From the UHGV virus genome UHGV-0096064: a DNA stretch of 64,000 bases, one strand, 5' to 3'. The notes beneath the pieces are model-generated. The model saw only the letters and a list, made by a program, of their open reading frames with translations, searched no databases and was not told the DNA's origin. This document shows positions 31,541 through 49,140 of the stretch, one piece after another. This DNA comes from a virus. Every line of letters begins with the position of its first letter. Within the stretch, counting starts at the first letter, position 1. The translations under genes and the position numbers were made by a program.

Positions 31541-34500
31541 TTACTTGAACCGGATGAGGGCCGCAGCTGCAGTCTGGTTCGTGTTACCGGACACGCTAAT
31601 CTTCACAGCCTTGCCAGCCAGCGCGGAGATGGCGGTGGCGCGGGTGCCAATCGTCACCGCAGAACCCGAAGAGAACTCAGGCTCAATGGAGAACGTCAGC
31701 GCATTGGCCCCGGCACCGTCCGCTTCCTTGGCGATAAGCTGCACCGTGGAGCGATCACCCGGAATGAAGGTGTGGATGATCGGAATCGTAGCACTGGACT
31801 CGAAGGTGTAGTACAGCGGCATGTCGGCATAATCAGCCGCATCCACAGCATTCGTGACCTGAGTCTTCAGCCAATCCGCATTCACAGACACCCCGGCAGC
31901 TTCCACCTTGATACCGCCGTTGACCTTGGCATTCACCGCCACAGACTTGGTGCCCGTACCGGAGATGGTCACACCGTTCCCGGCGGCCACCTTATCGCCC
32001 GTGTCCACGTTTTCCGCCAACCATGTGGTGTTGACGGAGATACCGCGGGCGTCGACGGTGATACCACCATCGGCCTTAGCCTTGGCAGTGATGGTCTTCG
32101 TGGTCGTACCGGAAATGATCACACCGTTCCCGGCGGCTACCTTGTCGCCAGTATCCACGTTTTTAGCCAGCCAATCGACGCTGACCGAGATACCCGTGGA
32201 GTCGACCAGAATACCGCCGTCCGGCTTCGCCTTGGCAGCCACGGTCTTCGTCCCGGTTCCGGTCAGGGTGATGCCGTTGCCAGCCGTAACCTTGTCGCCG
32301 ACCTTACCGGCCAGCCAAGATGCATCGACATAAACACCACTGGCATCGACCACGAGACCACTGGCAGCCTTCACCTTGACGGTAATCGTCTTAGTGTCAG
32401 TACCCTTAACGATCACACCGTTACCCGCAGCGACCTTGTCCCCGGCGGTAGTATGTTTGGCAAGCCATGCGGCATCAACAGAGACACCCGTTTCATCAAC
32501 GACAATGCCGCCGTCAGTTTTGGCCTTGACTTGGAAAGTCGAAAGCGCCAGTTCAAGACCATCACCCGCTTCATAATCACGCACATGCTTCTTGAAGAAG
32601 CTATACGTGATAATAGCCTCATTAATGGGATTCTGAGGCGTCATCGGCGCGACACCGTAAGGTGAAGGTGTATCTCGCAATTCCGTAAAAATAGGAAGCA
32701 CAACACCGAGAGAAGCCACTTGGTCATCCGCAGCTCCCTGAACAATATTCATCAGGATAGTGTGGTCTGTGGGAGAGACATTATGGCTAATGCTGGACAG
32801 CAACTTGCCGCCACCAACCCCGTAAGTCGTAACCAGATTGGCCCGGCCTGTTTCCTTAGTCAGAGCCGAACTCACCACAGCAATATGCTGAGTAATAGTC
32901 CCGTCCTGATTCAGCTTACCAGTAAAAGCCTTAAGGTCGGCAATGGTCTGATCACCGGAAGTACGGACAACCGTATCATCCACGGCGATGCCAGCGGCAG
33001 CCACCTCGATACCGTCACCCGCCTTGGCGGAGATAGTATCGGAAGCAATGGCAATACCATTGCCAGCCTTGTAGTTGCTGGCCGCATGCTCAGACAGCCA
33101 CTCGGTGTCCACGGAGATGCCGTCAGCGTCCACGATGATGCCGCCCTCAGCCTTGGCCTTGGCCGCAACCGTCTTGTTCGTCCCGTTCGCCGTGATGGAC
33201 ACGCCGTTACCAGCGACCACGGTGTCACCGCCAGCATGGTCTTTCAACCACTCCTCGTCGATGAACACGCCGTTCTCGTTGACGATAAGGCCGCCATCAG
33301 CACCCGGCTTCACGGAAATGTTTTTGGTGGTATCTTGATCAACGATGGTAACACCGCTACCAGCGGAAACGATGTCACCCTTGTCATGCTGCGCCAGCCA
33401 GTCCGTATCAATGTGGAGGCCATAGCTGTCGACCAACAGGCCCGCATCCAGCTTGACCTTGGCGTTGATGGTGGTGGTGGTGTCAGTCTCGGCACTGAAA
33501 CTGATACCGTCGCCCGGCTTGTACTCCATCACCTTGGGCAAATCGTCGGCAGACAGGTACGCACCCTTGTCAGAGCCTACGTTGATGAGGTTGCCCTCAT
33601 CACTGGAGACCACGTTGACGGTGAACTTCCCTTCGGAGTCGAACGTCAGAGCGTTTTCCTCGTCTTTGGTGGACACCATCGTCGACATATCGACACTCAG
33701 CTCATCAGCTTCGGTGAAGCTCAGGTGTCCATCAGCGGCAGCCTTCACGGAAATCTTGAACCCGTTGAAGATGATACCGTTGCCAGCGACATAATCGCCG
33801 CCCAAGCAGTGTTCCTCAATCCACTTCTCGTCGATGTAAACGCCGGAATCGTCGATGAGGATACCGCCAGCATCCTTCGGCTTGACCGCGATGGACTTGG
33901 CATCCTCGCCCTCGGTCACGGTAATGCCGAGACCAGCGTCGACCTTGTCGCCAAGCTGAGGCGTGAGCCACTCGGTGTCCACACCCACGCCATTCTCGCC
34001 GACAGTCAGGCCGCCTTCGGGGTCAACCTTAACGGAAACGGTCGCATCAGAACCGGACAGGGAGACGTTGATACCATCCCCGGCCACAGGTTTCGGCGCA
34101 TGTTCGCCAAGCCACTCCTCATCCACATAAACGCCATCGGCATCGGTACGGATACCGCCGCCAGCTTTCGTCTTCGTGGCAACGCCATCGGCGTCCTTGC
34201 GCAGACCCCCAAGGGGATTCAGCTTCACGGCCAGACCACCCTGAGAACCTTCGGAAGAGGCACCAGCGGCGAGGCACTCAAGGCCGGACGTGTTGTCGTT
34301 GGCGGCGGTCAAGTCCATCTTCACGGCGATAGTCTTGACGAACTCGTCATCCCCAGTAAGGGCGATACCACAACCCGCCTGAACCTTGTCGGAACGCTTG
34401 GCGAGCCAGTCCTCATCAATACTCAGACCATTGGCCGCGTTGCACAGGATACCACCGTCTTCATGGAGACGGACGATAATCTGCTTCCCGTCCATCTCGA

Positions 34501-35956
34501 TGCCGCAACCGGAAGTGTACGGGTCAACCCGAAGCTGACCGGACTCGTCGACATACAGGTCGTTATCGTCGCCACCAGTACCCACAATCTTGCTGGTGTC
34601 CACGGCGATGCCGCCGTCTTCACCGAGCTTGAGGGTGCCGTCCTCGCTCAGATGCACCATGATGGGAGACACCGACGCACCGGAAATGGTCTGAGCCGCA
34701 CCGAACATGAGGCCGGACTTGGCGATGAGGGGCAGGTCGAGGTACCCATTGTGGCAGGCAAGGCCGTTGTAGGGCTTGCCCGTGGTGCCGTCGCCGCGCA
34801 GGAGCACGGAGATGACATCGTTGGCAACCTTGATGCCGCAGCCACCAGTGTAGTTGTCGATGAAATCATCCACGTTCACATACACATCGACCACGTTGCC
34901 GTTCGACAGGAGATAGACGAAGCGCATATACTTGCCGGGGATGATGCCGACGCCGGGGGTGAAAGTGGCGGAACCCGTCAGCTTCATGCCAGTCAGCGCC
35001 TTCCAGTTGATGGTCAGGAGAGACCCGTCAGCGAACCGGAAGGTGGTCGGCTGCGTGGAGACAACGGCGGACTCACGGTGGTCTTCGAGGAAGGAGGCGC
35101 GGGCCACTTCGGGCCACAGGCCGGAGTGCTCGGCATCAAGCTCATACTCGAAGTCGATGGTCTGTTCGACGTTCAGCTTCGTGTGGAACTTGAGGCCCAT
35201 CCCGCCGTCGAAGTCGTAGTCGCCGTACTTCATCGCGATGGACAGCATGTAGTCGCCTACCGTGTCCTCTTCGCCGGAAGCGTCAGGTTTGCCGTCCACG
35301 ATGTAAACGGCGCGCAGGGAAGAGGTCGAGGTCATGATGGTCACGGTATCAACCACGACCCCATCATGCCCGGTGATGTTGAGCTTGCCAGTGTTGGCAT
35401 CGTACTCAACGCCGACCTCGGAAGAAATCTTCCCGTTGTTCCCCTCGTAGAGAATCTTGTCGTTGCGGTTGACCAGCGAGTCGAAGTCGGCGTAAGCGCC
35501 GCCGTCTTCACCGCGTTCGAGAAGGTTGCCGTCATCCTTGGAGATGACTTCGAGAACCTCGAACACGTCCTCACGGGTCAGCTTGATTTTGCCGTCCACC
35601 TCACTGATTGTCAGAAGGTTGATGACGGCGTTGGACAGGATGTCGTTCCCGTCAATCTTGACGCCGCCATCGGAACCGAAGCCGAGCATGTTGTCCGCGT
35701 CGGCGGAAATCTTCGGTTCGGCGGGCAGGGCGAACAGCTTGCCGTCCACACCGAGCTTGATGATGTTGTTGTCCGTCGCGCTGACGAAATCGTCAGCCTT
35801 CACGGACAGGCCGTCAGCAAGGTTCTTGAGCAGGTTCACGCCGTCCGTGGACACGGGGACGAAAACGGGACTGAGGAGGGAACCCTCGGTCGCCGATACG
35901 TGTTTCTTCCCATCGACAGACAGCGTAACCGGAGTAAAAAAGATAGCCACAGGCAT
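31541..35956 (-). CDS. tail fiber / receptor-binding protein with internal tandem repeats
   Basis: 1471 aa. Many copies of a ~45-48-aa unit (e.g. KVAAGNGVIVKGTDTKTITVKVKAASGLVVDASGVYVDASWLAGKVGD). Gly/Asp/Thr/Val-rich beta-structure composition. Confidence 0.6.
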   Translation of the reverse strand: MPVAIFFTPVTLSVDGKKHVSATEGSLLSPVFVPVSTDGVNLLKNLADGLSVKADDFVSATDNNIIKLGVDGKLFALPAEPKISADADNMLGFGSDGGVKIDGNDILSNAVINLLTISEVDGKIKLTREDVFEVLEVISKDDGNLLERGEDGGAYADFDSLVNRNDKILYEGNNGKISSEVGVEYDANTGKLNITGHDGVVVDTVTIMTSTSSLRAVYIVDGKPDASGEEDTVGDYMLSIAMKYGDYDFDGGMGLKFHTKLNVEQTIDFEYELDAEHSGLWPEVARASFLEDHRESAVVSTQPTTFRFADGSLLTINWKALTGMKLTGSATFTPGVGIIPGKYMRFVYLLSNGNVVDVYVNVDDFIDNYTGGCGIKVANDVISVLLRGDGTTGKPYNGLACHNGYLDLPLIAKSGLMFGAAQTISGASVSPIMVHLSEDGTLKLGEDGGIAVDTSKIVGTGGDDNDLYVDESGQLRVDPYTSGCGIEMDGKQIIVRLHEDGGILCNAANGLSIDEDWLAKRSDKVQAGCGIALTGDDEFVKTIAVKMDLTAANDNTSGLECLAAGASSEGSQGGLAVKLNPLGGLRKDADGVATKTKAGGGIRTDADGVYVDEEWLGEHAPKPVAGDGINVSLSGSDATVSVKVDPEGGLTVGENGVGVDTEWLTPQLGDKVDAGLGITVTEGEDAKSIAVKPKDAGGILIDDSGVYIDEKWIEEHCLGGDYVAGNGIIFNGFKISVKAAADGHLSFTEADELSVDMSTMVSTKDEENALTFDSEGKFTVNVVSSDEGNLINVGSDKGAYLSADDLPKVMEYKPGDGISFSAETDTTTTINAKVKLDAGLLVDSYGLHIDTDWLAQHDKGDIVSAGSGVTIVDQDTTKNISVKPGADGGLIVNENGVFIDEEWLKDHAGGDTVVAGNGVSITANGTNKTVAAKAKAEGGIIVDADGISVDTEWLSEHAASNYKAGNGIAIASDTISAKAGDGIEVAAAGIAVDDTVVRTSGDQTIADLKAFTGKLNQDGTITQHIAVVSSALTKETGRANLVTTYGVGGGKLLSSISHNVSPTDHTILMNIVQGAADDQVASLGVVLPIFTELRDTPSPYGVAPMTPQNPINEAIITYSFFKKHVRDYEAGDGLELALSTFQVKAKTDGGIVVDETGVSVDAAWLAKHTTAGDKVAAGNGVIVKGTDTKTITVKVKAASGLVVDASGVYVDASWLAGKVGDKVTAGNGITLTGTGTKTVAAKAKPDGGILVDSTGISVSVDWLAKNVDTGDKVAAGNGVIISGTTTKTITAKAKADGGITVDARGISVNTTWLAENVDTGDKVAAGNGVTISGTGTKSVAVNAKVNGGIKVEAAGVSVNADWLKTQVTNAVDAADYADMPLYYTFESSATIPIIHTFIPGDRSTVQLIAKEADGAGANALTFSIEPEFSSGSAVTIGTRATAISALAGKAVKISVSGNTNQTAAAALIRFK
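31800..32540. repeat. ~144-bp tandem coding repeats (about 5 near-identical copies) inside tail-fiber gene
   Basis: Repeated nucleotide blocks (...gatcacaccgttcccggcggc(c/t)accttgtcgcc...) corresponding to the C-terminal five 48-aa protein repeats. More divergent copies extend 5' to about 34300. Boundaries approximate. Confidence 0.6.
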
Positions 35957-36136: not shown

Positions 36137-36487
36137 TCAGTCGTCCGAAACCGTTCGTACCACAGCTTCTTCGTTTGCCGCTTGGATGAATCTGATTTCC
36201 TCAAACCTGTCATTGGCAACCTCCAGCTTGTCGTCATACTGACGAATGATAAGGAGTAAATCCTCAACCGTACAGATGGTATCACCCACGACAGGATGAG
36301 GAATAGGAGCAAGCAAATACTCCGGCACCCGCGTCGTATTCACCTTACTCACTTTCAGGGAAGGCGTGCAGCCCACGCACAAGCTCAGGAGGGATAACAA
36401 CAGACAGCACGCTGCGAACCTCTTGGCTCTGCGCAGCCATTTTAGACAGACGCTTCTCGAAAGATAGGAACTGTGTCTGGCGTTCAT
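36137..36487 (-). CDS. candidate o-spanin (outer-membrane lipoprotein)
   Basis: Signal peptide with a lipobox-like LLLSLLSLCVGC. Pro-containing ~70-aa mature part. Gene overlaps the 3' part of the i-spanin candidate in another frame (Rz/Rz1-like architecture). Confidence 0.45.
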   Translation of the reverse strand: MNARHSSYLSRSVCLKWLRRAKRFAACCLLLSLLSLCVGCTPSLKVSKVNTTRVPEYLLAPIPHPVVGDTICTVEDLLLIIRQYDDKLEVANDRFEEIRFIQAANEEAVVRTVSDD

Positions 36488-36704
36488 GCTCTCTATTCTC
36501 CAACCGTTGCGTCGCTTCTTCCACCCGTGCCGAACGAGCTATTTCTTCTGTCAACACCATATTCATGTCTTGCAGGGATTCTGTCAACAGCTCGTTGCGC
36601 TCACGCAAACTCTCCAACTCCCTGTACCCAAAATAAACCGCCAAGGCAACGACGCCGACAAACACCGCGCCTATGACGGCGGCAACCTTTTCCACTTCGG
36701 ACAT
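36345..36704 (-). CDS. candidate i-spanin
   Basis: N-terminal TM helix (VAAVIGAVFVGVVALAVYFGY) followed by coiled-coil-prone charged sequence. Located after the holin. Confidence 0.45.
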   Translation of the reverse strand: MSEVEKVAAVIGAVFVGVVALAVYFGYRELESLRERNELLTESLQDMNMVLTEEIARSARVEEATQRLENREHERQTQFLSFEKRLSKMAAQSQEVRSVLSVVIPPELVRGLHAFPESE

Positions 36705-37252
36705 GGCGGCACCTTCCCGTTGAGGGCCTCTTCGACATGGCGGCGCACTTCCGGGTCATTCAACTCCACGCTGATATGCGCGGCCACCCGCTGCCGAAGG
36801 ACGCCCATAATCTTCTCCAGCACCGGATGGATGGGACAGCCGAGGCTCCGCAGGTTGTTGATGATGCTCGCGGCTTCGGTGAGGCAGCAACAGAACAGAC
36901 CCCAATTCACGGCGTAGATGATGACCCCGGAAGTTCGGAAAAAGGCATAGCAAAGAAGCCCCGTGATGACCACCAGCGCCATATAGGTCAGGAACTTGCG
37001 CATCCAGTGGAACAGGTACTTGGGGTCGAACGTCCCGTAGACTCTGGACTTCAACACGCCCAAGACGAGATCGGCGGATGCGAACAGGATGTAGATGCCG
37101 AAGACGTTGACATCACCATAAAGCACCTCGGTGAAGAATGTAGCGACAGCGGCTATAACCATTTTAGCGTAGTAACCAAACATAAGCTGTCCTGCATAAT
37201 ATACGGTGCTGTCCCGAAGGCTCTCCAAGGACTCTATTACTGCATTCTTCAT
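36671..37252 (-). CDS. holin (phage holin 4_1 / LL-H-like family)
   Basis: Multiple TM segments. IYILFASADLVLGVLKSRVYG resembles the DxITG..K..SSKxGxxG core of family-4 holins. Adjacent to endolysin and spanin candidates. Confidence 0.55.
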   Translation of the reverse strand: MKNAVIESLESLRDSTVYYAGQLMFGYYAKMVIAAVATFFTEVLYGDVNVFGIYILFASADLVLGVLKSRVYGTFDPKYLFHWMRKFLTYMALVVITGLLCYAFFRTSGVIIYAVNWGLFCCCLTEAASIINNLRSLGCPIHPVLEKIMGVLRQRVAAHISVELNDPEVRRHVEEALNGKVPPCPKWKRLPPS

Positions 37253-37255
37253 AGA

Positions 37256-37864
37256 TTACCCCTCGAAATCCGAACGCTCAAGCAACGTATACGTAAAAGA
37301 ATTTCCATAGACCGACCGCGCTTTCTCCAATACTTCAATGAACTTCTTGTATTCCGCCGCCCCCGCGCCCACCGTGCAGCCCTCTGACCAGTTGTCCACC
37401 TGAATGGAGGTGTGGGTCTTGGACGACCAGTGAATGTTGATGCCGAACATCCCCCACTGGATGTCCCCATAGTCCATATACAAGTCCATGTTCTTGTCCC
37501 GGTATACGGCCACAGGCTTTATCTGGACGAGAGCCTTCTCCTTGCCCTTGTGCAAGCCCAGAGCATAGGCACCCCTGTATTGCCCCGGCACCATAACGGC
37601 CCGGCCATAGGATGGCGGGCTTATCATCGGCCCCTTGCCGGGGTCGGTGGTGCAGGCGAACCTGTCATCCACCCATTCACCATCCACCTTATATAACAGG
37701 CACAGCGTATCGTCAAATTTGTTGGTGACTTGGCGGCTGTTTCGGATGCCTACCACGTTGGTATTGTAGTCGCCCTCGGTAAACACGGCATACCCCTTGC
37801 GGCGCATGACCGAGAAAATATCGTCAAGGCTGTAGTCGACCATAGGATTCTCCTTTTGGAGCAC
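37256..37864 (-). CDS. putative endolysin (unrecognised fold; likely start at internal ATG ~37843 after AAGGAGA)
   Basis: 195-202-aa soluble protein immediately upstream of the holin. Called by position only. No match to lysozyme, amidase_2, M15, M23 or CHAP signatures by eye. Confidence 0.35.
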   Translation of the reverse strand: MLQKENPMVDYSLDDIFSVMRRKGYAVFTEGDYNTNVVGIRNSRQVTNKFDDTLCLLYKVDGEWVDDRFACTTDPGKGPMISPPSYGRAVMVPGQYRGAYALGLHKGKEKALVQIKPVAVYRDKNMDLYMDYGDIQWGMFGINIHWSSKTHTSIQVDNWSEGCTVGAGAAEYKKFIEVLEKARSVYGNSFTYTLLERSDFEG

Positions 37865-37901
37865 AGGGTAAAATAATTATGGGAAACCCTCAACAAAACC
37901 G

Positions 37902-37930
37902 TTGACATCCGGGACGAATGCGTCTATATA
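37902..37930 (+). promoter_or_regulatory. consensus sigma70-like promoter TTGACA-N17-TATATA
   Basis: TTGACA at 37902-37907, 17-nt spacer, TATATA at 37925-37930, on the plus strand inside a minus-strand block. Confidence 0.5.
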
Positions 37931-37936
37931 TGGCTC

Positions 37937-38136: not shown

Positions 38137-38148
38137 GCCTATTGGCGC

Positions 38149-39255
38149 CTACCGCCAACTAGCTGGAATGTTTGAATAATTTGCCGCATTGGTACAATTC
38201 ATGAAAGTGAAGTCATGGGTCGGCGTGTTCGGGTACTTCGACCACAAGGCCGGGACGCTCGACGTAATGGCGGCATCATACGAGAACGAATGGGTGAAGT
38301 CCTCGACCGATTTGGTCGTATCGAACAACGATTCCGGCACCGTGATTAACCCTGTACAATTATTGAACACATAGGCGAAGTTGGTCACTTTGGTCGTGGT
38401 GCTGAACAGGCCAGACGGGACGACGATAATCTCAGGACACTCCATGAACGTGCCGTAAAAGCTGGTCGCCTCGGTGTTATTCTTGAAAAGCGTCGACGGG
38501 ACTTGAACCAGATTGCTGCACCGGGCGAACGTCCCGGCGAAAAGCTGCGCCTTGGAGTTGTTGGCGAACAGATTCTGCGGCACCTCACGCAACCCGTCGC
38601 AGCCGTCGAAGCAATAGGAAAAGTCCACGACATTGGGGTTCCCCGCGAACAGGTCAGCCGGAATGTCCGTCACCTTCACCAGCCCATGGAAGCAGTTCTG
38701 GAACCCGGTCGCCGCCTTGCAATTGGCAAACAAATTCTCCGGGATGGATGAAATCAGGGAACAGCCGTTGAAGCTGTTGGAGAACCCGGTACACTCCGTC
38801 CACAGGTCAAAGAGGCCCACCGGGATGGAGCGGAGATGCGAGCAGCCGTAGAAGTGGGAATAGGGGTCGGTCAGCACCGGGGGCAAGCTGTAGGTCTCGG
38901 CACCATCCGGCCCGATGTTGACAAGGGTCTCCCGAAAGAATTGGGTATGCGGGATAGCCGCCCGTTCAGGGTTGCTTCCCACGAACTGGACTTGGCGCAT
39001 GTCCTTTGCCCAGATGCGCATGGTGTAAACGCCGGACTGGTCATAGTCGTGGATGAGCTGGTCGGTATCGCTGCTTCCGGCCTTGACGGTCGTGACCTTG
39101 CCATCTCCCCACTCAATGAAGGTATCAATCAGGAATACCCCCCTCTCGTCTTCCAGATAACCGAGCGGCGCGCTCGTCCGCTTTCCCCCGGATGTGGTGG
39201 CCCCGGTGTCCACGACGAACACCATCGGCATCATATTGTCTCTGTATCCATACAT
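38149..39255 (-). CDS. LRR (BspA-like, LRR_5-type) repeat protein, paralog 1
   Basis: Repeats of F..C..L..I.IP..LF.NN..V..F...F. N-terminus MYGYRDN is shared with the other LRR genes. Start refined to an ATG 93 nt inside the track ORF. Confidence 0.7.
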   Translation of the reverse strand: MYGYRDNMMPMVFVVDTGATTSGGKRTSAPLGYLEDERGVFLIDTFIEWGDGKVTTVKAGSSDTDQLIHDYDQSGVYTMRIWAKDMRQVQFVGSNPERAAIPHTQFFRETLVNIGPDGAETYSLPPVLTDPYSHFYGCSHLRSIPVGLFDLWTECTGFSNSFNGCSLISSIPENLFANCKAATGFQNCFHGLVKVTDIPADLFAGNPNVVDFSYCFDGCDGLREVPQNLFANNSKAQLFAGTFARCSNLVQVPSTLFKNNTEATSFYGTFMECPEIIVVPSGLFSTTTKVTNFAYVFNNCTGLITVPESLFDTTKSVEDFTHSFSYDAAITSSVPALWSKYPNTPTHDFTFMNCTNAANYSNIPASWR

Positions 39256-39269
39256 AACGGCATATCCTA

Positions 39270-39285
39270 TGTGTGTGTGTGTGTG
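39270..39285. repeat. (TG)8 dinucleotide microsatellite in divergent promoter region
   Basis: tgtgtgtgtgtgtgtg lies 15-30 nt upstream of the LRR1 start codon (minus strand) and ~80 nt upstream of plus-strand gene 39366. Confidence 0.8.
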
Positions 39286-39365
39286 CATCCCTTGACGAAT
39301 CTGCCTGGCAGTGCATACTACCCCCAAAGAACACCCATTGTCCAACACCCAATACAGGAGCCAAT

Positions 39366-39953
39366 ATGGACAGACTCATTTGCGGCTACCCGGTCGTGCC
39401 CAAGGCGAAAACGCTCATGGTGTACTCCGACCCCGACTATACCAGCCCCTACCCCGGATATGCTCTGGAAGAAGTCATGAACTTCCGTGCGGACGACAAG
39501 CCCTATGTCGGCCCCGTCGAGTTTGAATACGACGACAGCATCACTGGCCCCGCGTCCGTGACGACCGACAGCAAAGGGAAAGCCACCGTCACCCTCACGC
39601 CGAACAGAGATGGCCTCTCCATCATCACATGCAAATTCGGGGGGGGAGAGTACGAACTCAGGTACAGTGTGCTAAACCATCAGGTGAGGTTCGGCGTCAG
39701 AACCATCTACCAGAACCGGAACACCTCCACAACGCTCTGGGTCAACAATAACTTGCAGGAATACAACGGGACGGTCTCCATCAAGTACCCGGCAGGGCTT
39801 ACCGGGCCGACCAGCGGTAAGATAAGCGCCGGGGCGATGGCAATCACCATCAACGGCTCCACGCTCGGACGCAAACAGGTCGACGTCCAGTTCGGCGTGC
39901 AGACCGCCTACTGCGCCGTGGAAGTCATTAAAGACCCGATGCCTCCTCAGTAA
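39366..39953 (+). CDS. hypothetical secreted/Ig-like protein
   Basis: 196 aa from an ATG preceded by AGGAG. Thr/Gly-rich beta composition (TVTLTPNRDGLSIITCKFGGGEYELRYSV). Confidence 0.45.
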   Translation: MDRLICGYPVVPKAKTLMVYSDPDYTSPYPGYALEEVMNFRADDKPYVGPVEFEYDDSITGPASVTTDSKGKATVTLTPNRDGLSIITCKFGGGEYELRYSVLNHQVRFGVRTIYQNRNTSTTLWVNNNLQEYNGTVSIKYPAGLTGPTSGKISAGAMAITINGSTLGRKQVDVQFGVQTAYCAVEVIKDPMPPQ

Positions 39954-40027
39954 CCCGTACACCCCCTGTCATTCCGGCAGGGGGTTTCGTTTTGAACAGG
40001 ATTGACTATCCATTACCCCCCTTAAAA

Positions 40028-40055
40028 TCCTTTGATAAACCCTATCATCAAAGGA
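40028..40055 (+). promoter_or_regulatory. inverted repeat TCCTTTGAT-N10-ATCAAAGGA overlapping the SD of gene 40063
   Basis: Perfect 9-bp arms. The right arm contains the AAGGA Shine-Dalgarno 8 nt upstream of the ATG at 40063. Confidence 0.5.
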
Positions 40056-40062
40056 TGGAACC

Positions 40063-40695
40063 ATGTACGGATATTTGGAAAACAAGGGCAGGGTCATGGG
40101 AAAACTCGCCTTCTCCTGCTCTTGGAACTTCGTCGGCGACCTCGCCAACAACCCCCGGTACAACGCGCTAGTGACGACGCCGAACCTCCTCTTCCTCTCG
40201 ACGTCCTATGAAGAGCCGGGAGCGGATGACGGGATGGAGTTCACCTCAAACGGCCTTGTCTGCACCGAGGGGTCGATTGCCACGAAGACGCAAACGGATT
40301 CAAGCTGGACAATCTCAGGACTTACGGGGTCACAAATCAACATGGGCGCGGGTTCGGCCAATGCCTTCAACATCATCAACTACCTGACCGCATGGGTCTG
40401 GAGTCCGAAGAAGGAACAGTGGTATTCTCTGGGCACACTCCCCTCGTATGCACCGGGGTCTCCGACTTCCGTCAACACCGACCAGCACCTGTCGATGGAT
40501 AGGCAAGGCGAGGTGAGCTACCTCGAAGCCAAGGAACCCTCTGACGACCACCGCATCATCCGGTGGGAAGACTTCGACTTCCACTTCCAGATGACGGCGG
40601 TCTATACGGACAAGTACGAGAGCTGCAACTTCAAGGAACCCATCGTGAACGTGCGCTTCGGCGCGCCCTACGAGTTCGACCCCGACTACTTCTAG
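40063..40695 (+). CDS. hypothetical protein (N-terminus MYGYLENK resembles the LRR paralog N-termini)
   Basis: 210-aa ORF on the opposite strand to the surrounding LRR genes. Confidence 0.5.
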   Translation: MYGYLENKGRVMGKLAFSCSWNFVGDLANNPRYNALVTTPNLLFLSTSYEEPGADDGMEFTSNGLVCTEGSIATKTQTDSSWTISGLTGSQINMGAGSANAFNIINYLTAWVWSPKKEQWYSLGTLPSYAPGSPTSVNTDQHLSMDRQGEVSYLEAKEPSDDHRIIRWEDFDFHFQMTAVYTDKYESCNFKEPIVNVRFGAPYEFDPDYF

Positions 40696-40801
40696 AAAAG
40701 GCCGGAATGGGGCCTAGGATGGCGATAACGGGTCAAGATAGCGTTGGATAAGGGATGAGGGATTGCGAGGCTCTGGAGGGCGTTTCTGCCCCGGAAAAGG
40801 T

Positions 40802-40834
40802 GAACCCCTCTCAAGTTGCAGTTGAGAGGGGTTC
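40802..40834. terminator. strong hairpin (13-bp perfect stem GAACCCCTCTCAA/TTGAGAGGGGTTC, 7-nt loop)
   Basis: Between convergent genes 40063..40695 (+) and the small membrane ORFs (-). TTTT follows on the minus strand. Confidence 0.5.
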
Positions 40835-40939
40835 GGAGGACTGGTCATGTCCATACGTTGGAGTACGTATACGGCAGGAGACCGAAATCAGGATGTTTCC
40901 TTAATTACCCCGCCAGTATACCCCGGACGGGGCTTGAAG

Positions 40940-41071
40940 TCAACAGCCGCCCCATCGCTCCATCGCGTAGATGAGGATGCAGGCTATCACCCATCCCCAG
41001 AAGATGCCGCTGCACGCGGCCCAGAACGGGACGCACAGGAAGACGAACGTGAGGAACAAGATGTAAGCCAT
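40940..41071 (-). CDS. small hydrophobic membrane peptide (43 aa), below track cutoff
   Basis: MAYILFLTFVFLCVPFWAACSGIFWGWVIACILIYAMERWGGC. Start codon 1 nt after the stop of 41073..41264. Hand-derived. Confidence 0.3.
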   Translation of the reverse strand: MAYILFLTFVFLCVPFWAACSGIFWGWVIACILIYAMERWGGC

Positions 41072-41072
41072 A

Positions 41073-41264
41073 CTAAAGAGTTCTCGTGGCCCAAAGGATG
41101 AAGGCGATGCAGGCCAAAAGGCTCACCAGCACGGCGCAGGCAATCGCGAAATCATCCGAGGGCACGGCCTCCCGGTTCTGGCAGGGGCACTGGACGACGA
41201 TGGTTTGGCACACAGGCTGGCACTGGACAGGCATCGGATACTGAACGGACGGAGAAGCATTCAT
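41073..41264 (-). CDS. small membrane protein (63 aa, C-terminal TM helix)
   Basis: Cys/Pro/Gln-rich N-terminus, hydrophobic C-terminus (AIACAVLVSLLACIAFILWA). Confidence 0.35.
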   Translation of the reverse strand: MNASPSVQYPMPVQCQPVCQTIVVQCPCQNREAVPSDDFAIACAVLVSLLACIAFILWATRTL

Positions 41265-41304
41265 ATCGAGGACTCCTTTGGGTTAAATGGTTCGAGAACG
41301 GATG

Positions 41305-42916
41305 TTACTTCCAATCGTCGGGAATGTCAACGTAGTTGGAAGCACTGGTCACGTTGCGGAAACACCTGCCATGGTCGGCGACATCAGGGTATGTCGTCCA
41401 TAGCGTGGGTACGGCGCTTGTTACCTGTGAGCAACCGAGGAATGTACTTACAAAACTTTCCACTTTGCTCTTATTGTCAAACAACCCGGACGGGATGCTC
41501 TTTAGAACCTGCCAATTCGCGAACGTATTCTGGAAAGATGTGACATCCGGCTGGTTCCTGAACAGTCCGGCGGGAATCTCCACACCAGCCCACCACTCGG
41601 AAAAGGCGTTATAGAAGTTGGTCGCCTTGATATTGTTGGCAAATATGTCTTCCGGTATATGCGTCATCTTGGACAAACCGGCAAACACGCTGCCGAAGTT
41701 AGTAACCTTGGTGTTCTTAGCGAAAAGGTTCGCAGGGATTTCTCCCACGATACTCTGACATCCGCTGAACGTGGCGAAGAACACCGTGGCATCCGGCTAG
41801 TTGTCGAACAGTCCTTCGGGTATCCCCGTTATCAGGCTGCAATCGGAGAACACATAGGAGAAATCGGTAATCTTGGGATTGTTGGCGAACAATTCCGCCG
41901 GGATAGTACCCGTCACCTTGTAGCAGCTTTCAAACAGATACTCGACATCCACGAGTTCCGTCATGGCGCTCAGGAGATTGCCCGGAATGGAACCCGTGAG
42001 GTTCCTGCAATTGTCGAACAGATGGGCCACGGTGGTGACTTTCGTATGCTTGGAGAACATGGAGGGCATGGGATTGGCCCAACTCGAACAATTTTGGAAG
42101 GTCGATGCAAACGAAGTCACTTCGAGATTGGTGTCGAATAATGTCGTGGGCACCGAAACCAGCGAGGTGCAACCATAGAACGTGTTGGTGAAGTCGACGA
42201 CTCTGGTGTTCTTGGCGAAAAGTCTGGACGGGATGGTGGTGATGCCGCACGTTGAGAATGTACCGTAAAAAAGTCGTGACGTCCGGGCAATTATCAAAGA
42301 GGTTGTTGGGAATGGCCTTGATGCCGAGGCATCCATAAAAACAATCGGAAAAACTGTTGACCTTGACGGTCTTGTCGAAGAGACCGGATGGGATTTCCGT
42401 CAAACCGGAACAGGTGTGGAACGTGGAGTTGAAGGTCTCGGTGTTCGGATTGCCGTCGAAAATCCCGGCGGGGATGGCCTTCAATTTGGAGCAGCCGTAG
42501 AACGCGCCCTTGAACGCGGTCGGGACAAGTTCCGGAAAGCTGTATCCGGTAGGGTCTTTCGGCACGATGCCGACAAGCGTGTCCTGCCACAAGTCCATGT
42601 TCTTTATGGCGTTCGTAAACGAGCACTTGCCGAGGTCGTCCGCCGTCACTCCTATGACGTACTCGCCCGGCGTCGCGTAAGTATGCGTGGCGTACTCGTC
42701 GAAATAGGCATCACTATACTCGATGCCCTTGGGGATGGTCGTAATGGTGCCGTCGCCCCAATCCACTTGTACGGCAGTCTGCGTTTTATAACCAGACATC
42801 ATATTCTCGAACGCATGGATGGAGCTCATGGCTTTCGTATTGCCCGATGTCGTAGCCTCGGTATTCACGACACAATAGACGTATTCCCTATCCTTATGAT
42901 TCAAATAAGCATACAT
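41305..42916 (-). pseudogene. LRR (BspA-like) paralog 2, disrupted by in-frame TAG (41797-41799) and a +1 frameshift in an A6/T6 run (42267-42272)
   Basis: Three track ORFs (41930..42940, 41797..42336, 41305..41784) are one continuous LRR reading frame. It reads DVTTF|YGTFSTCGITTIP across the homopolymer if one T is removed, and GLFDN-TAG-PDATVFFATFSGC across the stop. Confidence 0.65.
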
Positions 42917-42938
42917 AATGATACTCTCCTTATTTTCC

Positions 42939-42948
42939 ATATATATAT
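42939..42948. repeat. (AT)5 dinucleotide repeat upstream of LRR2 start
   Basis: atatatatat lies 23-32 nt upstream of the SD-preceded ATG (42914-42916) on the minus strand. Confidence 0.6.
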
Positions 42949-42992
42949 GGGGATTCAGTCAAAGAGCGACGCCATGTGAGGTCAGGAGGGGA

Positions 42993-44708
42993 CTACTTCC
43001 AGTCGTCAGGAATGTCGGCGTAGTTGGTCAACTTGCTGCAATTTCTGAAACATTTAGTTCCATTGGCGTCAGGATGAGTGACCCACAAGTCGGGAGCTGT
43101 TCCAACCAGCTTGTAACAATTCTCGAATATCTGGTGGAAATCCTTGATATTCGGATTGTTCACGAAGAGGTTCGTTGGCAGCGTCGTCAAATTGGTGCAT
43201 CCATTAAACATCATCTCCACGTCATCCAGAGCAGGATTGTTGTCAAACAACCCTTCCGGGATGGCACCCTCCAACGTGTTCAAACTATAGAAAGCGTAAG
43301 CCAAATTCTTTAACTTGGGGTTGTTGGCGAACAGCTTGGCGGGAATGGAGCCGTTGAAATCACAACCGTAGAACACGCTGTCGAGATACGTTAGCTCCGG
43401 GCAATTGGCAAAAAGATTCTCAGGAATGGGGCCGTTCAAATTGCATACCCTGAACAAACCGGAAAAAATCTCGGCAAGCGGGTTATGAGCGAACAACCCT
43501 TCCGGAATGGGGCCCACCAAACCATCACAACCATAGAAACAGCCGGAGAAGTTCGTCACTTCGGGGCAATTGGCAAAAAGGTTTTCAGGGATAGTTCCTG
43601 TGAGTCCCTCGCAGAACCGGAAGGTATCCGAAAACGTCTGCACCTTCGTGCAATTGGCAAAGAAGTTCTCAGGAATGGCACCAGTGAGCTTCTCACATTC
43701 ATAGAACGTCGCCTCGAAAGAAATAACTTCGGGGCAATTGGCGAACAAACCCGCAGGCAGGGAACCCGTCAGGCCCTTGCAACCGTAGAATGCAGAGACA
43801 AAGGTACCCGCCTTCCGGTTATTGGCGAAAAGATTCTCAGGAATGGAGCCAGTGATATTTTCGTCAAAATAGAACAATCGGTCAAAAGTGTAAGCTATGG
43901 TGTTGTGGGCAAAAAGGTTTTCAGGGATAGGCCCTGTCAATCCAGGGCAGTGGCTGAATACATAGGCGAACGATGTCACATTGGGATTGTTGGCGAAGAG
44001 ATTCTCAGGAATTTCAGTCAGTCCCTCACAACCATTGAACACGCTGTCAAACTTGTAAACTTTTGGACAATTGGCAAAAAGGTTTTCAGGGATAGACGTG
44101 ATATTTTCACAGCTATAGAATGTGGAAGCAAACGACTCGACCTTGGTGTTCTTGGTGAAAAGGTCTTCGGGAAGCGCACCCGTAAGTCCAAGACAATAAT
44201 AGAACGTATTTTCAAAAGTGGTGGCGTCTACGTTTTTGTAGAATATGCCTTTAGGAACCTGCGTCAACTTCTTGCAACTATAAAAGGCATAAGCAAGTCC
44301 GTCATGCCGGAAAACAGGCAGCGAATAGGACTCGGCACCCTTGGGGCCAATCCCGATAAGAGTTCTTCTATAGACATTCCATTCACTCTGGTTGATGTCA
44401 TAACCATGCAACTTGCAGACGCTGAAATCATCAGCGTAAACAGTCACAGTATATTCGCCGGGGGTGGCATAGTCATGCGTGGAATATTTATCCCAATACT
44501 GTGAATAAAACTCCGTACCCTTGGGAATTTCGGAAATTGAACCATCACCCCAATCAATAGTAATTGCCGTCAGGGATTGCTCATCAAGACCAAAGCTATT
44601 GAATGAATATACTGGAACCACAAACTCGGTATCACCCTCGTTGGTGGCCTCGGTATTTATAAGAAAGATAAGGCTTTCACGCGGCTCATTGTCACGATAA
44701 CCATACAT
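42993..44708 (-). CDS. LRR (BspA-like) repeat protein, paralog 3 (571 aa)
   Basis: About 18 LRR_5-type repeats (FxxCxxLTGxIPExLFANxP.V..F). Start refined to the MYGYRDNEP ATG with AAAGGAGA upstream. The track ORF extends a further 234 nt upstream. Confidence 0.7.
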   Translation of the reverse strand: MYGYRDNEPRESLIFLINTEATNEGDTEFVVPVYSFNSFGLDEQSLTAITIDWGDGSISEIPKGTEFYSQYWDKYSTHDYATPGEYTVTVYADDFSVCKLHGYDINQSEWNVYRRTLIGIGPKGAESYSLPVFRHDGLAYAFYSCKKLTQVPKGIFYKNVDATTFENTFYYCLGLTGALPEDLFTKNTKVESFASTFYSCENITSIPENLFANCPKVYKFDSVFNGCEGLTEIPENLFANNPNVTSFAYVFSHCPGLTGPIPENLFAHNTIAYTFDRLFYFDENITGSIPENLFANNRKAGTFVSAFYGCKGLTGSLPAGLFANCPEVISFEATFYECEKLTGAIPENFFANCTKVQTFSDTFRFCEGLTGTIPENLFANCPEVTNFSGCFYGCDGLVGPIPEGLFAHNPLAEIFSGLFRVCNLNGPIPENLFANCPELTYLDSVFYGCDFNGSIPAKLFANNPKLKNLAYAFYSLNTLEGAIPEGLFDNNPALDDVEMMFNGCTNLTTLPTNLFVNNPNIKDFHQIFENCYKLVGTAPDLWVTHPDANGTKCFRNCSKLTNYADIPDDWK

Positions 44709-44738
44709 ATTGGTTCTCCTTTTTGTCCTTTCTATACA

Positions 44739-44748
44739 AGAGAGAGAG
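44739..44748. repeat. (AG)5 dinucleotide repeat upstream of LRR3 start
   Basis: agagagagag lies ~31-40 nt upstream of the ATG at 44706-44708 (minus strand). Confidence 0.55.
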
Positions 44749-49139: not shown

Positions 49140-49140
49140 C

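What the first reader, a model, noticed from the sequence alone, without database searches (positions are those of the whole stretch)
38149..44708. Accessory island of three paralogous BspA-type LRR genes with lower GC and mixed strand orientation
Three minus-strand genes (38149..39255, 41305..42916, 42993..44708) encode LRR_5/BspA-like repeats (F..C..L..IP..LF.NN..V..F) and share an N-terminal MYGY(R/L) leader. Their C-terminal repeat regions have diverged. Two unrelated plus-strand genes (39366..39953, 40063..40695; the latter also starts MYGYLENK) and two tiny membrane-peptide genes are interspersed. By eye the island is ~10 points lower in GC than the core structural genes. Its position after the lysis cassette, at the start of the late transcription unit, is moron-like. 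Such proteins could be auxiliary receptor-binding or host-adhesion proteins, or lysogenic-conversion-type factors.
Basis: partly seen in the sequence, partly recalled or inferred. Interest (0 to 1): 0.55.

Follow-up and report, generated by a model that had tools for sequence, protein, structure and literature searches.

The report
Hypervariable LRR adhesin genes in gut phage
An uncultured human-gut phage carries one stable and two rapidly swapped leucine-rich-repeat genes next to its lysis and tail-fibre genes; they are probably host-binding proteins on the virus particle, which makes this an ordinary kind of phage host-range locus built from an unusual fold.

Summary
The three minus-strand paralogs are real. 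Each has a short M-Y-G/A-Y head, a PKD-like Ig domain, 7-14 repeats of 27-28 aa and a conserved C-terminal cap. AlphaFold models g3 as an LRR solenoid (pLDDT 93.7).

The description needs three corrections:
- **The middle gene is a pseudogene here.** It has an extra T in a T-run (42267-42272) and an in-frame TAG (41797-41799). Both are derived and are present in two other independent assemblies. Relatives have an intact 536-aa gene.
- **The low GC applies only to g3 (0.466) and g2 (~0.52).** g1, ORF195 and ORF210 match the genome (0.57).
- **Curated LRR_5, DUF285 and PARCEL models are not passed.** g3 just misses LRR_5.

Ten related genomes are 92-99% identical in the flanks. They show ten different g3/g2 arrangements: whole-allele swaps, head/body shuffles and in-frame chimeras between repeats. 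g1 is kept in all ten.

The proteins have no signal peptide, and I found no lysogeny genes. The same LRR module with the same cap is fused to baseplate protein gpI in a Klebsiella P2-like phage. In a distant relative, a g1 homolog sits directly after the fibre genes.

Best reading (about 0.5): virion-displayed host-binding adhesins that diversify by cassette recombination. This is a new member of a known kind, of moderate interest.

The parts
42993..44708 (-). g3: intact 571-aa LRR gene (MYGYRDN head, PKD-like domain, 14 repeats of 27-28 aa, C-terminal cap). It sits in the hypervariable slot and has foreign composition (GC 0.466, GC3 0.55).
   Evidence: ORF; repeats; AF2 pLDDT 93.7; LRR fold matches; GC and CAI z about -3.4. 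The slot holds a 482-aa allele in L003 and a 753-aa allele in L017 and L027. It has no separate gene in L023, L026 or L021, and a chimera in L031. dN/dS against L005 is 0.22.
41305..42916 (-). g2: LRR pseudogene. Repairing one frameshift and one stop gives 536 aa with 13 repeats.
   Evidence: Split into ORFs 41930-42940, 41797-42336 and 41305-41784. L003 has an intact 536-aa ortholog, 98% identical. Both lesions are derived in the window lineage when polarised with outgroups. Both are also present in L022 and L028, two separate assemblies that are 100% identical to the window over 36000-47000.
42267..42272 (-). T6 run carrying the 1-nt insertion that frameshifts g2. T5 would read DVTTFYGTFSTCG.
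   Evidence: Sequence; T5 in L003 and L023.
41797..41799 (-). In-frame TAG in g2. Relatives have CAG (Gln), which aligns with the NQPD/NCPD position of other repeats.
   Evidence: TAG is an ordinary stop here: 26 of 64 called genes end in TAG and no tRNA gene is present.
41073..41264 (-). Small ORF (63 aa) with a C-terminal hydrophobic segment, conserved in all relatives.
   Evidence: present in L003, L005, L017 and L021-L031. dN/dS 0.14.
40940..41071 (-). Small ORF (43 aa), hydrophobic. The identical protein is found on at least 24 contigs.
40063..40695 (+). ORF210: non-LRR, near-orphan protein of unknown fold. Its first about 10 codons resemble an LRR-gene head (MYGYLENKGR against MYAYLNHKDR). 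It is a presence/absence cassette.
   Evidence: Only 2 homologs exist among 5.8 billion proteins. It is absent in L005 and L029, frameshifted in L003, and truncated or split in L021 and L031. In L018 an ORF210-like body follows an LRR head, at the slot where sister contig L019 has an LRR gene. AF2 failed, pLDDT 28.8.
39961..39985 (+). Terminator-like hairpin with a 10-bp G+C-rich stem, just after ORF195.
   Evidence: This is a consensus match only.
39366..39953 (+). ORF195: small protein with a sub-threshold bacterial Ig-like (Big_1 / Big_3_5 / invasin D3) match. It is conserved in all relatives.
   Evidence: Pfam E = 4e-5 to 6e-5, below cut-off. dN/dS 0.23 against L005. Present in all loci.
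39639..39646 (+). G8 tract inside ORF195 (codons about 92-94). Its length differs between genomes and switches the reading frame.
   Evidence: G8 in the window, L003, L005, L017, L026 and L031; G7 in L023; G9 in L027. ORF195 is called as two ORFs in L023 and L027, and also in L029, where the tract itself could not be read.
38149..39255 (-). g1: intact 368-aa LRR gene with 7 repeats. It is the conserved member, with native composition.
   Evidence: 365-368 aa in L005, L021, L023, L026, L027, L029 and L031. Intact as far as it can be read in L017, where the contig ends inside the gene. Frameshifted only in L003. dN/dS 0.32. A 46%-identical full-length homolog lies after the fibre genes of distant relative L019.
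39138..39145 (-). Interrupted poly-G tract in g1 (GAGGGGGG on the coding strand).
   Evidence: Relatives have G8 (L017, L021, L023, L026, L027, L029), G7 with a frameshift (L003) or G5 in frame (L005).
44695..44708 (-). Recurrent recombination joint at the ATG-TAT-GGT-TAT (MYGY) head of the g3 slot.
   Evidence: Alignments of L017, L023, L026 and L027 to the window break at 44695-44698. The L018/L019 pair breaks 24 nt into the gene, right after the equivalent CGY.
42948..44542 (-). Segment replaced wholesale between the window and L003, which are 99% identical elsewhere. It runs from codon 56 of g3 (just after WGDG) to the g3-g2 intergenic spacer.
36137..37864 (-). Flanking lysis cassette: endolysin-like gene 37256-37864, holin 36671-37252, i-spanin 36345-36704, o-spanin 36137-36487.
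   Evidence: Pfam Phage_holin_4_1, E = 9.5e-11. PHROG endolysin and Rz-like spanin hits.
31541..35956 (-). Flanking 1471-aa fibre protein, the other receptor-binding candidate of this phage.
   Evidence: Pfam Av_adeno_fibre (48.1 bits) and BppL_N (29.5 bits), both above cut-off. It shares segments with the Mtd_N-bearing fibre genes of L019.

Best explanation
The locus is the variable host-recognition module of an uncultured virulent-type gut podophage whose host is probably in the Rikenellaceae (Alistipes). It lies between the early/late control region and the lysis and fibre genes.

It encodes monomeric adhesins with the layout [short M-Y-x-Y head + PKD-like Ig domain]-[LRR solenoid]-[C-terminal cap]. 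I infer that these are made in the cytoplasm late in infection, mounted on the virion, and bind structures on the bacterial surface as auxiliary or alternative receptor-binding proteins alongside the 1471-aa fibre.

g1 is the stable member. The two slots next to the control region (g3 and g2) diversify quickly in two ways:
- Homologous recombination at conserved joints: the head, the WGDG motif, the C-terminal cap and the spacer.
- Unequal crossing-over between LRR repeats of neighbouring paralogs. This swaps whole alleles, shuffles heads and bodies, makes in-frame chimeras, and leaves fragments and pseudogenes. g2 in this window is one such pseudogene.

Shown: paralogy, fold, lack of export signals, the pseudogene, the mosaic population structure, and homology to LRR modules of tail proteins.

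Inferred: virion location, ligand, and any docking role for the head.
For: 1. **Fold and architecture.** The AF2 model is a high-confidence PKD-like domain plus LRR solenoid. Foldseek matches LRR receptors and many phage proteins annotated as BspA-family LRR.
2. **Same module in virion proteins.** Klebsiella phage ST16-OXA48phi5.4 gp35 reads Tail_P2_I (131 bits) + Big_2 + LRR_5/DUF285. It aligns to g3 at 31% identity (E = 2e-52) through to the same C-terminal ...Y.D.P..W cap. The tblastn matches in rV5-like coliphages fall under genes annotated as tail proteins, next to tail-fibre genes.
3. **Linkage.** Here the genes adjoin the lysis cassette and the fibre gene. In distant relative L019 (endolysin 50% identical) the g1 homolog (46%) directly follows fibre genes that carry Mtd_N domains and share segments with p1471.
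4. **Population pattern typical of receptor-binding genes.** Ten genomes that are 92-99% identical in the flanks have ten different g3/g2 arrangements. The joints fall at conserved heads, and two arrangements are in-frame repeat-to-repeat chimeras (L021, 919 aa; L031, 545 aa).
5. **The intact copies are under purifying selection.** dN/dS is 0.32 for g1 and 0.22 for g3.
6. **No export and no lysogeny.** There is no N-terminal hydrophobic signal. No integrase was found, and the phage has its own DNA polymerase, helicase, primase and exonucleases.
7. **The bacterial homologs look like surface adhesins.** They are 30-47% identical Bacteroidales proteins. One is named a BspA-family surface protein by NCBI, and many carry fimbrillin-like, BACON or PKD domains. 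They contain the same PKD + LRR + cap unit at their C-termini.
Against: - There is no direct evidence that any of these proteins is in the virion.
- They have no recognisable tail or baseplate anchoring domain (Pfam, PHROGs and NCBIfam).
- The only PHROG hit, phrog_9915, has unknown function.
- LRR solenoids are usually monomeric, unlike the trimeric fibres and spikes that serve as classical receptor-binding proteins.
- The phage already has a large fibre, p1471.
- Two island genes (ORF195, ORF210) are on the opposite strand, so the island is not a simple part of the late operon.
- Losing g2 in this lineage is evidently tolerated.
- The annotations of the cultured-phage homologs as 'tail protein' are themselves mostly predictions.
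Confidence: 0.5

Rival explanations
1. Virion decoration for environmental adherence rather than host recognition. The PKD/Ig + LRR proteins and the Ig-like ORF195 would sit on the capsid or tail and bind mucin or other gut glycans. This is a Hoc-like, 'adherence to mucus' role that raises encounter rates without determining host range.
For: - The N-terminal domain is PKD-like and ORF195 has Ig-like matches, though all are below cut-off. From general knowledge, Ig-like domains on phages are typically non-essential surface decorations.
- g2 can be lost.
- A separate large fibre exists.
- The source samples are gut metagenomes, judging from the sample names.
Against: - Allele turnover between near-identical phages is extreme and the joints are conserved. 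That fits an arms race with a variable bacterial surface better than binding to host mucus.
- Homologous modules are fused to a baseplate wedge protein, not to capsid proteins.
- In L019 the gene follows the fibre genes.
Confidence: 0.15
2. Non-structural LRR proteins that act in the infected cell or after lysis. They could be protein-binding modules that sequester a host defence or takeover target, or soluble proteins released at lysis. Diversification would then be driven by variable host targets.
For: - There is no signal peptide and no virion-anchor domain.
- The genes lie right next to the early/late control region, not among the tail genes.
- LRRs are general protein-protein interaction modules (general knowledge).
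Against: - The genes are oriented with, and contiguous to, the late lysis and structural block.
- The closest characterised context of the same module is a baseplate fusion.
- The bacterial homologs are extracellular surface proteins.
- The distant relative places the gene after the fibre genes.
Confidence: 0.2
3. Largely decaying cargo. The LRR genes would be fragments captured from bacterial surface-protein genes, carried as near-neutral passengers in a recombination hot spot, with no function for the phage.
For: - g2 is a pseudogene here. Fragments and frameshifted copies occur in relatives: L005 has a 202-aa fragment, and L003 has g1 and ORF210 frameshifts.
- g3 has foreign GC.
Against: - g1 is kept at 365-368 aa in 8 of the 10 distinct genomes, with dN/dS 0.32. 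It is intact as far as it can be read in a ninth (L017). g3 has dN/dS 0.22.
- The chimeras found are in frame and full length.
- Every genome retains at least two intact LRR genes.
- A 46%-identical homolog persists in a distant relative.
Confidence: 0.07
4. Lysogenic-conversion or moron surface factor. The proteins would be expressed from a prophage and displayed on the bacterial surface like host BspA proteins.
For: - The homologs are bacterial surface proteins.
- g3 has lower GC.
- ORF195 has its own terminator-like hairpin.
Against: - There is no signal peptide or lipobox. Maximum 15-aa hydropathy in the first 55 residues is below 1.0.
- No integrase or repressor was found among the proteins of 250 aa or more that were scanned. 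The phage has virulent-type replication genes.
- All 24 contigs carrying the identical p43 protein are under 200 kb, and the 13 largest fall in the 50-200 kb class. The seven complete contigs shown are 62.5-66.5 kb, which is phage-genome size rather than bacterial contigs.
Confidence: 0.03

Closest known systems
Mosaic tail-fibre / receptor-binding-protein loci of tailed phages (conserved N-terminal part, exchangeable C-terminal part; for example the host-recognition modules discussed in PMC10579305)
   Same: The locus is next to the tail and lysis genes. Flanks are nearly identical between relatives while the gene bodies are swapped wholesale. Breakpoints fall in a conserved N-terminal head. 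Several alternative genes sit side by side.
   Different: The variable part is a monomeric-type LRR solenoid, not a trimeric fibre, beta-helix or spike. No known virion-anchor domain is present. Diversity also arises by unequal crossing-over between internal repeats of neighbouring paralogs. Virion location is unproven.
BspA-family / DUF285 (PF03382) / PARCEL-repeat LRR surface proteins of Bacteroidales
   Same: They are homologous at 30-47% identity, with the same PKD-like domain + LRR + C-terminal cap unit. The repeat length is similar, at 26-28 aa.
   Different: The phage proteins lack the 300-400-aa N-terminal part of the bacterial proteins (signal or lipoprotein sequence, fimbrillin-like, BACON). 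They also do not themselves reach the curated cut-offs of LRR_5, DUF285 or TIGR02167.
Klebsiella P2-like phage ST16-OXA48phi5.4 gp35 ('tail protein I') and the 'tail protein' genes of rV5-like coliphages under the tblastn matches
   Same: gp35 has the same LRR module, at 31% identity, down to the terminal Y.D.P..W cap and preceded by an Ig-like domain. The rV5-like matches are 32-35% identical and lie under annotated tail proteins.
   Different: In gp35 the module is covalently fused to a recognised baseplate domain (Tail_P2_I). Here it is a stand-alone gene with only a 10-residue head before the Ig domain.
Paralog families with a common N-terminal module and variable binding domains on phage Goslar (DUF7941 proteins, some with LRR domains; bioRxiv 10.64898/2026.04.21.720040)
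   Same: Several paralogs share an N-terminal part and differ in a C-terminal binding domain that can be an LRR. That preprint proposes a role in host recognition.
   Different: The N-terminal module is unrelated. Goslar is a jumbo myovirus, and no allele turnover between strains is described there.
Hypermutable poly-G tracts in phage receptor-binding genes (Campylobacter phages, Sorensen et al. 2021 Cell Rep 35:109214, cited in PMC10877375) and phage contingency loci (bioRxiv 10.1101/2025.10.21.683753)
   Same: G8 tracts lie inside ORF195 and inside g1 of most relatives. Their lengths differ among natural genomes (7/8/9 and 5/7/8) and switch the frame.
   Different: Only differences between assemblies were seen. 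Variation within a population and reversibility were not shown. G8 tracts are no more frequent than chance in this genome. In the window the g1 tract is interrupted by an A.

Membership tests
Pfam LRR_5 (PF13306, BspA-type LRR) | Whole-protein score at or above the gathering cut-off (27.7 bits) | tested here: not met
   g3 26.6 bits (E = 6e-6), g2 (repaired) 16.5 bits, g1 no hit at E <= 0.01. g3 is borderline.
DUF285 (PF03382) / PARCEL 26-residue repeat (TIGR02167) | A match to the curated model above its cut-off | tested here: not met
   No PF03382 hit at E <= 0.01 for any of the three. TIGR02167 scores 22.6 against a 30-bit cut-off for g3 only. However, many homologs at 30-47% identity carry PF03382 in the precomputed annotation, and the related Klebsiella gp35 passes both LRR_5 and DUF285. 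The three genes are therefore divergent relatives rather than scored members.
Leucine-rich-repeat superfamily (fold level) | Tandem repeats of 20-30 residues forming a curved solenoid with a conserved hydrophobic core pattern | tested here: met
   7-14 repeats of 27-28 aa with the pattern IP..LF.N...V..F...F..C..L. AF2 gives a solenoid with pLDDT above 95 across the repeats. Foldseek probability is 1.00 to LRR receptor ectodomains. phmmer finds the GSO1 LRR at E = 1.4e-12.
BspA-like bacterial cell-surface proteins | An N-terminal export signal (signal peptide or lipoprotein) or another surface-anchoring part | tested here: not met
   Maximum 15-residue Kyte-Doolittle hydropathy in the first 55 residues is 0.15-0.97. 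The proteins start directly with the PKD-like domain.
Phage receptor-binding / tail-fibre proteins | Homology to a known virion-anchoring (tail, baseplate or fibre N-terminal) domain | tested here: not met
   No tail, baseplate or fibre family was found in Pfam, PHROGs or NCBIfam for g1, g2 or g3. The only PHROG hit is phrog_9915, of unknown function.
Phage receptor-binding / tail-fibre proteins | Location in or beside the tail and lysis module, and a hypervariable body behind a conserved N-terminus when relatives are compared | tested here: met
   The genes adjoin the lysis cassette and the 1471-aa fibre. In L019 the gene follows the fibre genes. Ten arrangements occur in ten genomes, with joints at the head.
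Phage receptor-binding / tail-fibre proteins | Presence in the virion and binding to the host surface | not testable with these tools
   This needs virion proteomics, cryo-EM and adsorption assays. No cultured relative exists: portal identity to any cultured phage is 28% or less.
Moron (independently acquired, independently transcribed accessory gene) | Composition different from the genome, and presence/absence among close relatives | tested here: inconclusive
   Met for g3 (GC3 0.55 against 0.75) and for ORF210 (an indel among relatives). Not met for g1 or ORF195, which have native composition and are present in all relatives. Whether each gene has its own promoter and terminator could not be judged, because the sigma-70 scan is not suited to a Bacteroidota host.
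Stop-codon recoding (TAG read as an amino acid) or programmed frameshift in g2 | TAG avoided as a terminator, or a suppressor tRNA present; the frameshift site conserved in relatives | tested here: not met
   TAG ends 26 of 64 called genes and there are no tRNA genes. Relatives have T5 and CAG, giving one plain ORF.
Invertible-segment (Mu G / shufflon) or diversity-generating retroelement systems | Inverted repeats flanking the variable part plus an invertase; or a reverse transcriptase plus a template/variable repeat pair | tested here: not met
   No long inverted or near-identical direct repeat pair flanks the genes. There is no invertase or reverse-transcriptase hit among the proteins scanned, which cover all ORFs of 250 aa or more.
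Phase-variable contingency locus | A simple-sequence tract inside the ORF whose length varies and switches the frame | tested here: inconclusive
   The ORF195 tract is G8 here, G7 in L023 and G9 in L027. The g1 tract is G8, G7 or G5 in relatives and interrupted here. Assembly error at homopolymers cannot be excluded, and within-population heterogeneity was not testable.

The most novel reading that the evidence does not exclude
The short M-Y-x-Y head plus the first strands of the PKD-like domain could be a universal plug-in adaptor. It would let unrelated binding bodies be mounted on the same virion site and exchanged by recombination at the head. The bodies would include LRR arrays of any length and the orphan ORF210 domain. 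Poly-G tracts in g1 and ORF195 would add reversible on/off switching. Together this would be a combinatorial, partly phase-variable adhesin repertoire built from monomeric LRR solenoids. It would evolve by the same unequal crossing-over seen in plant resistance-gene clusters, but in a phage.
Probability: 0.2. Interest if true: 0.65.

Novelty: new member of a known kind. Interest (0 to 1): 0.42.

Why it matters
Host ranges of uncultured gut phages, and of Alistipes/Rikenellaceae phages in particular, are almost unknown. This locus is a clear, sequence-defined candidate for the host-range determinant of one widespread human-gut phage lineage. Near-identical genomes turn up in many independent metagenomes.

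It also shows that stand-alone LRR proteins, which are common but uncharacterised in phage genomes, behave in populations like receptor-binding genes. Alleles are swapped at conserved joints, and new repeat arrays arise by in-frame unequal crossing-over. If binding were demonstrated, LRR solenoids would join fibres and spikes as a class of phage adhesin, and the natural allele series would give a ready-made panel for mapping specificity.

Tried and rejected
1. **TAG recoding of the in-frame stop in g2: rejected.** TAG is the commonest terminator (26 of 64 genes), no suppressor tRNA is present, and relatives have CAG.
2. **Programmed frameshift at the T-run: rejected.** TTT-TTA-C, with TTA at 0.9% of Leu codons, would allow a +1 slip that restores the frame. 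But relatives have T5, and the downstream TAG would still truncate the product. A -1 slip gives the wrong frame.
3. **Invertible segment between the oppositely oriented MYGY starts of g1 and ORF210: rejected.** Only about 11 nt are shared, no flanking inverted repeats exist and there is no invertase.
4. **Structure of ORF210: failed.** Only two homologs exist, and AF2 gave pLDDT 28.8, which is unusable.
5. **Endolysin-anchored search of IMG/VR.** Six of the seven loci were unrelated phages sharing only the lysin.
6. **Fibre-anchored scans of IMG/VR and of the JGI metagenomes.** These returned one contig each. The exact-protein look-up of the 43-aa ORF was what delivered the genome series.
The single-protein scan gave three Rikenellaceae hits at 32-40% identity, which is a weak host hint only.
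8. **Excess of nonsynonymous differences between the window and L003.** It looked like positive selection on the island, but it is genome-wide. The L003-derived changes are enriched in A>C and T>G, which suggests errors in that assembly.
9. **Literature search** for BspA or LRR phage receptor-binding proteins of Bacteroidales found nothing directly relevant.

Full report
**What the window is.** The 64-kb window is most of the genome of an uncultured phage.
- The minus strand from about 44.7 kb down to 4.7 kb carries a lysis cassette, a 1471-aa fibre, terminase, portal and major capsid protein. It also carries an SU10-type adaptor, internal virion proteins and a 2516-aa virion-RNA-polymerase-like protein.
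- The plus strand from 46.5 kb carries early and replication genes: DNA polymerase, helicase, exonucleases and primase/helicase.
- No integrase, repressor, reverse transcriptase or tRNA gene was found.
- The portal is at most 28% identical to that of any cultured phage.
- Spanins indicate a Gram-negative host.
- The best genomic hits for the LRR genes are in Alistipes and Tidjanibacter. From general knowledge, the 57% GC also fits Rikenellaceae. This is only a hint about the host.

**The observation.** Three paralogous genes are at the stated coordinates.
- They are 32-38% identical end to end.
- They share a PKD-like N-terminal domain with the WGDG...H.Y..G.Y signature, below the Pfam PKD cut-off.
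- They have 7 (g1), 13 (g2) and 14 (g3) repeats of 27-28 aa, visible in DNA as an 81/84-nt periodicity.
- They share a C-terminal cap ending NY..IP..W(K/R).
- AlphaFold with a 50-sequence alignment gives a confident model of g3 (pLDDT 93.7, pTM 0.91): a beta-sandwich followed by an LRR solenoid. Foldseek matches plant and animal LRR receptors and dozens of phage proteins annotated as BspA-family LRR proteins.
- Formally, none of the three passes the curated cut-offs of LRR_5, DUF285 or the PARCEL repeat. g3 misses LRR_5 by 1.1 bits. Their homologs at 30-47% identity are annotated with DUF285.
- The MYGY 'leader' is not an export signal. In the model it runs straight into the first strand of the Ig-like domain.

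**Corrections to the observation.**
- **g2 is dead in this genome.** One extra T in a T-run (42267-42272) shifts the frame, and 470 nt further on a CAG has become TAG (41797-41799).
  - A genome 99% identical in the flanks (L003) has T5 and CAG, giving an intact 536-aa gene.
  - Polarising with two further genomes shows both lesions are derived in the window lineage.
  - Two separately deposited assemblies (ENA ERZ28661800 and JGI 3300029552) are 100% identical to the window over 36000-47000 and carry both lesions. They are therefore not an assembly accident.
  - TAG is a normal stop in this phage, ending 26 of 64 genes.
- **The GC depression is real but partial.** g3 has GC 0.466, GC3 0.55 and a codon-adaptation z of -3.4, and g2 has GC 0.51-0.52. 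g1, ORF195 and ORF210 are typical of the genome.

**Comparison with relatives.** This is the decisive evidence.
- Looking up the exact 43-aa ORF (40940-41071) found at least 24 contigs. All are under 200 kb, and the 13 largest fall in the 50-200 kb class.
- Combined with contigs found through other proteins, this gives ten distinct genomes that are 92-99% identical to the window in the flanks.

| Genome | g3/g2 slot |
|---|---|
| window (= L022, L028) | 571 aa + pseudogene |
| L003 | 482 + 536 |
| L005 | 571 + a 202-aa fragment + 500 |
| L017 | 753 + 636 |
| L021 | one 919-aa in-frame chimera of the 753 allele and g2 |
| L023 | one 537-aa gene: 753-type head on a g2 body |
| L026 | one 575-aa allele |
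| L027 | 753 + a g2-head::p63 fusion |
| L029 | 571 + 480 |
| L031 | one 545-aa g3::g2 chimera |

- The L031 chimera arose by a deletion from 43237 to 41497, which removes both g2 lesions.
- Breakpoints recur at four places: the first 13 nt of the gene (ATG TAT GGT TAT C, 44695-44708), just after the WGDG motif (44542), the g3-g2 spacer (42948) and the end of g2 (41316).
- Heads and bodies assort independently. For example, the 482 allele of L003 has the head of the 571 allele. Its closest relative, the 480-aa allele of L029, has a different head, MWDYRDYEDLD.
- All alleles in these slots have lower GC (0.43-0.52).
- g1 behaves differently. It is 365-368 aa in eight of the ten genomes, intact as far as it can be read in L017, and frameshifted only in L003. 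It has native codon usage and dN/dS 0.32. g3 has dN/dS 0.22 against its 95%-identical ortholog.
- The stretch is therefore a conserved part (g1, ORF195, the two small ORFs) plus a hypervariable part (g3, g2, ORF210).

**ORF210.** It is nearly an orphan, with two homologs among 5.8 billion proteins.
- Its first ten codons resemble an LRR-gene head.
- In a more distant phage lineage, two contigs 97% identical over 9.8 kb diverge 24 nt into one gene. L019 continues as a full LRR gene 46% identical to g1. L018 continues as an LRR head up to WGDG, followed by an ORF210-like body.
- LRR bodies and the ORF210 body are thus alternative cassettes behind the same head.
- That slot lies directly after fibre genes that carry Mtd_N domains and share segments with the window's fibre p1471.

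**Function.**
- The same LRR module, including the terminal cap and a preceding Ig-like domain, forms the C-terminal two thirds of gp35 of Klebsiella phage ST16-OXA48phi5.4. The N-terminus of gp35 is the P2 baseplate protein gpI (Tail_P2_I, 131 bits; BLASTP to g3 E = 2e-52).
- In rV5-like coliphages the tblastn matches fall under genes annotated as tail proteins, next to tail-fibre genes.
- The bacterial homologs look like surface adhesins: one is named a BspA-family surface protein by NCBI, and many carry fimbrillin-like or BACON domains.
- Together with the missing export signal, the missing lysogeny genes, the linkage to lysis and fibre genes and the population pattern, this makes virion-displayed host-binding adhesins the most likely reading. 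I put it at about 0.5.
- The weak points are these: there is no recognisable anchor domain, LRRs are usually monomeric, a large fibre is already present, and there are no proteomic data.
- The rivals are a mucus or environment-binding decoration (0.15), a non-structural intracellular or released LRR protein (0.2), near-neutral decaying cargo (0.07) and a lysogenic-conversion surface factor (0.03).

**Possible phase variation.**
- ORF195 contains a G8 tract (39639-39646) that is G7 in L023 and G9 in L027. In both the gene is split.
- The corresponding tract in g1 is G8 in most relatives, G7 (out of frame) in L003 and G5 (in frame) in L005. In the window an A interrupts it.
- This resembles the hypermutable poly-G tracts reported in receptor-binding genes of Campylobacter phages (Sorensen et al. 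2021, cited in PMC10877375) and the phage contingency loci of bioRxiv 10.1101/2025.10.21.683753.
- G8 tracts are not over-represented here, and assembly errors at homopolymers cannot be excluded.

**Novelty.** BspA-family LRR proteins are frequent in phage genomes, and mosaic, fast-evolving host-recognition modules are textbook. This is a well-documented new example in an uncultured gut phage lineage, not a new kind of system. Three details are less usual: the genes are stand-alone LRR genes without an anchor domain, in-frame unequal crossing-over occurs between repeats of adjacent paralogs, and a short head is shared with a non-LRR cassette. I could not show these to be mechanistically new.

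Noticed in passing
window 45254-46244 (within the 1.8-kb intergenic region 44709-46540): There is a dense array of about 22 sites matching the palindrome-like motif TTACA(A/T)TGTAA, against 2 elsewhere in the 64 kb. That is 37 strand-matches where 5.9 are expected, and none of 100 shuffles reached 37. The region has low GC (0.33-0.42) and sits between the divergent late and early blocks, immediately upstream of g3. It is a candidate regulator-binding array, origin or genome end.
   Followed up: partly
window 44897-44922 and 46155-46180; 45040-45070; 45215-45240: A 26-nt inverted repeat, 96% complementary with arms 1.2 kb apart, brackets the motif array. Short tandem repeats (CCTCGACGC x3 and CAGTCCCGC x2-3) lie beside it.
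   Followed up: no
window 39639-39646 (ORF195) and 39138-39145 (g1): Poly-G tracts differ in length between natural genomes and switch the reading frame. ORF195 has G7, G8 or G9. g1 has G5, G7, G8 or, in the window, an interrupted tract. This may be phase variation or homopolymer assembly error.
   Followed up: partly
window 31541-35956 (-): This is a 1471-aa fibre protein with adenovirus-fibre-type shaft repeats and a BppL_N motif. Its length differs among relatives (1251-1471 aa are called). In the distant relative L019 the equivalent sequence is split over several genes that carry Mtd_N domains, so the fibre is itself mosaic.
   Followed up: partly
window 4709-12259 (-): This is a 2516-aa protein whose N-terminal part matches the PHROG family of virion RNA polymerases (E = 1e-13). 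The portal is at most 28% identical to any cultured phage, so the phage belongs to an uncharacterised lineage.
   Followed up: partly
window 32979-54718 compared with L003: Isolated differences between the window and the 99%-identical contig L003 are almost all nonsynonymous across the whole genome. In the 29 genes counted (36137-54427) there are 73 nonsynonymous against 27 synonymous codons, and most of the synonymous ones sit in two short patches. Changes derived in L003 are rich in A>C and T>G, while those derived in the window are mostly C>T and G>A. Errors in the Logan assembly of L003 are the likely cause.
   Followed up: partly
whole window: TAG is the most frequent stop codon (26 TAG, 25 TAA, 13 TGA among 64 called genes) in a 57% GC genome. 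TTA and CTA are nearly absent, at 0.9% and 0.5% of Leu codons.
   Followed up: no
L004 (ENA ERZ28653917 scaffold_1348, bacterial contig), locus 1-15761: Six LRR paralogs of 740-961 aa lie in tandem on a Bacteroidales-like chromosome, next to glycoside hydrolase genes. Homologs of g3 therefore also form paralog arrays in bacteria.
   Followed up: no
L018 9798-10504: A 68-aa ORF encodes an LRR-gene head that ends just after WGDG. It overlaps, through an ATGA, the start of the ORF210-like gene, and a G8 tract lies a few codons downstream. This may be a frameshifted fusion gene.
   Followed up: partly
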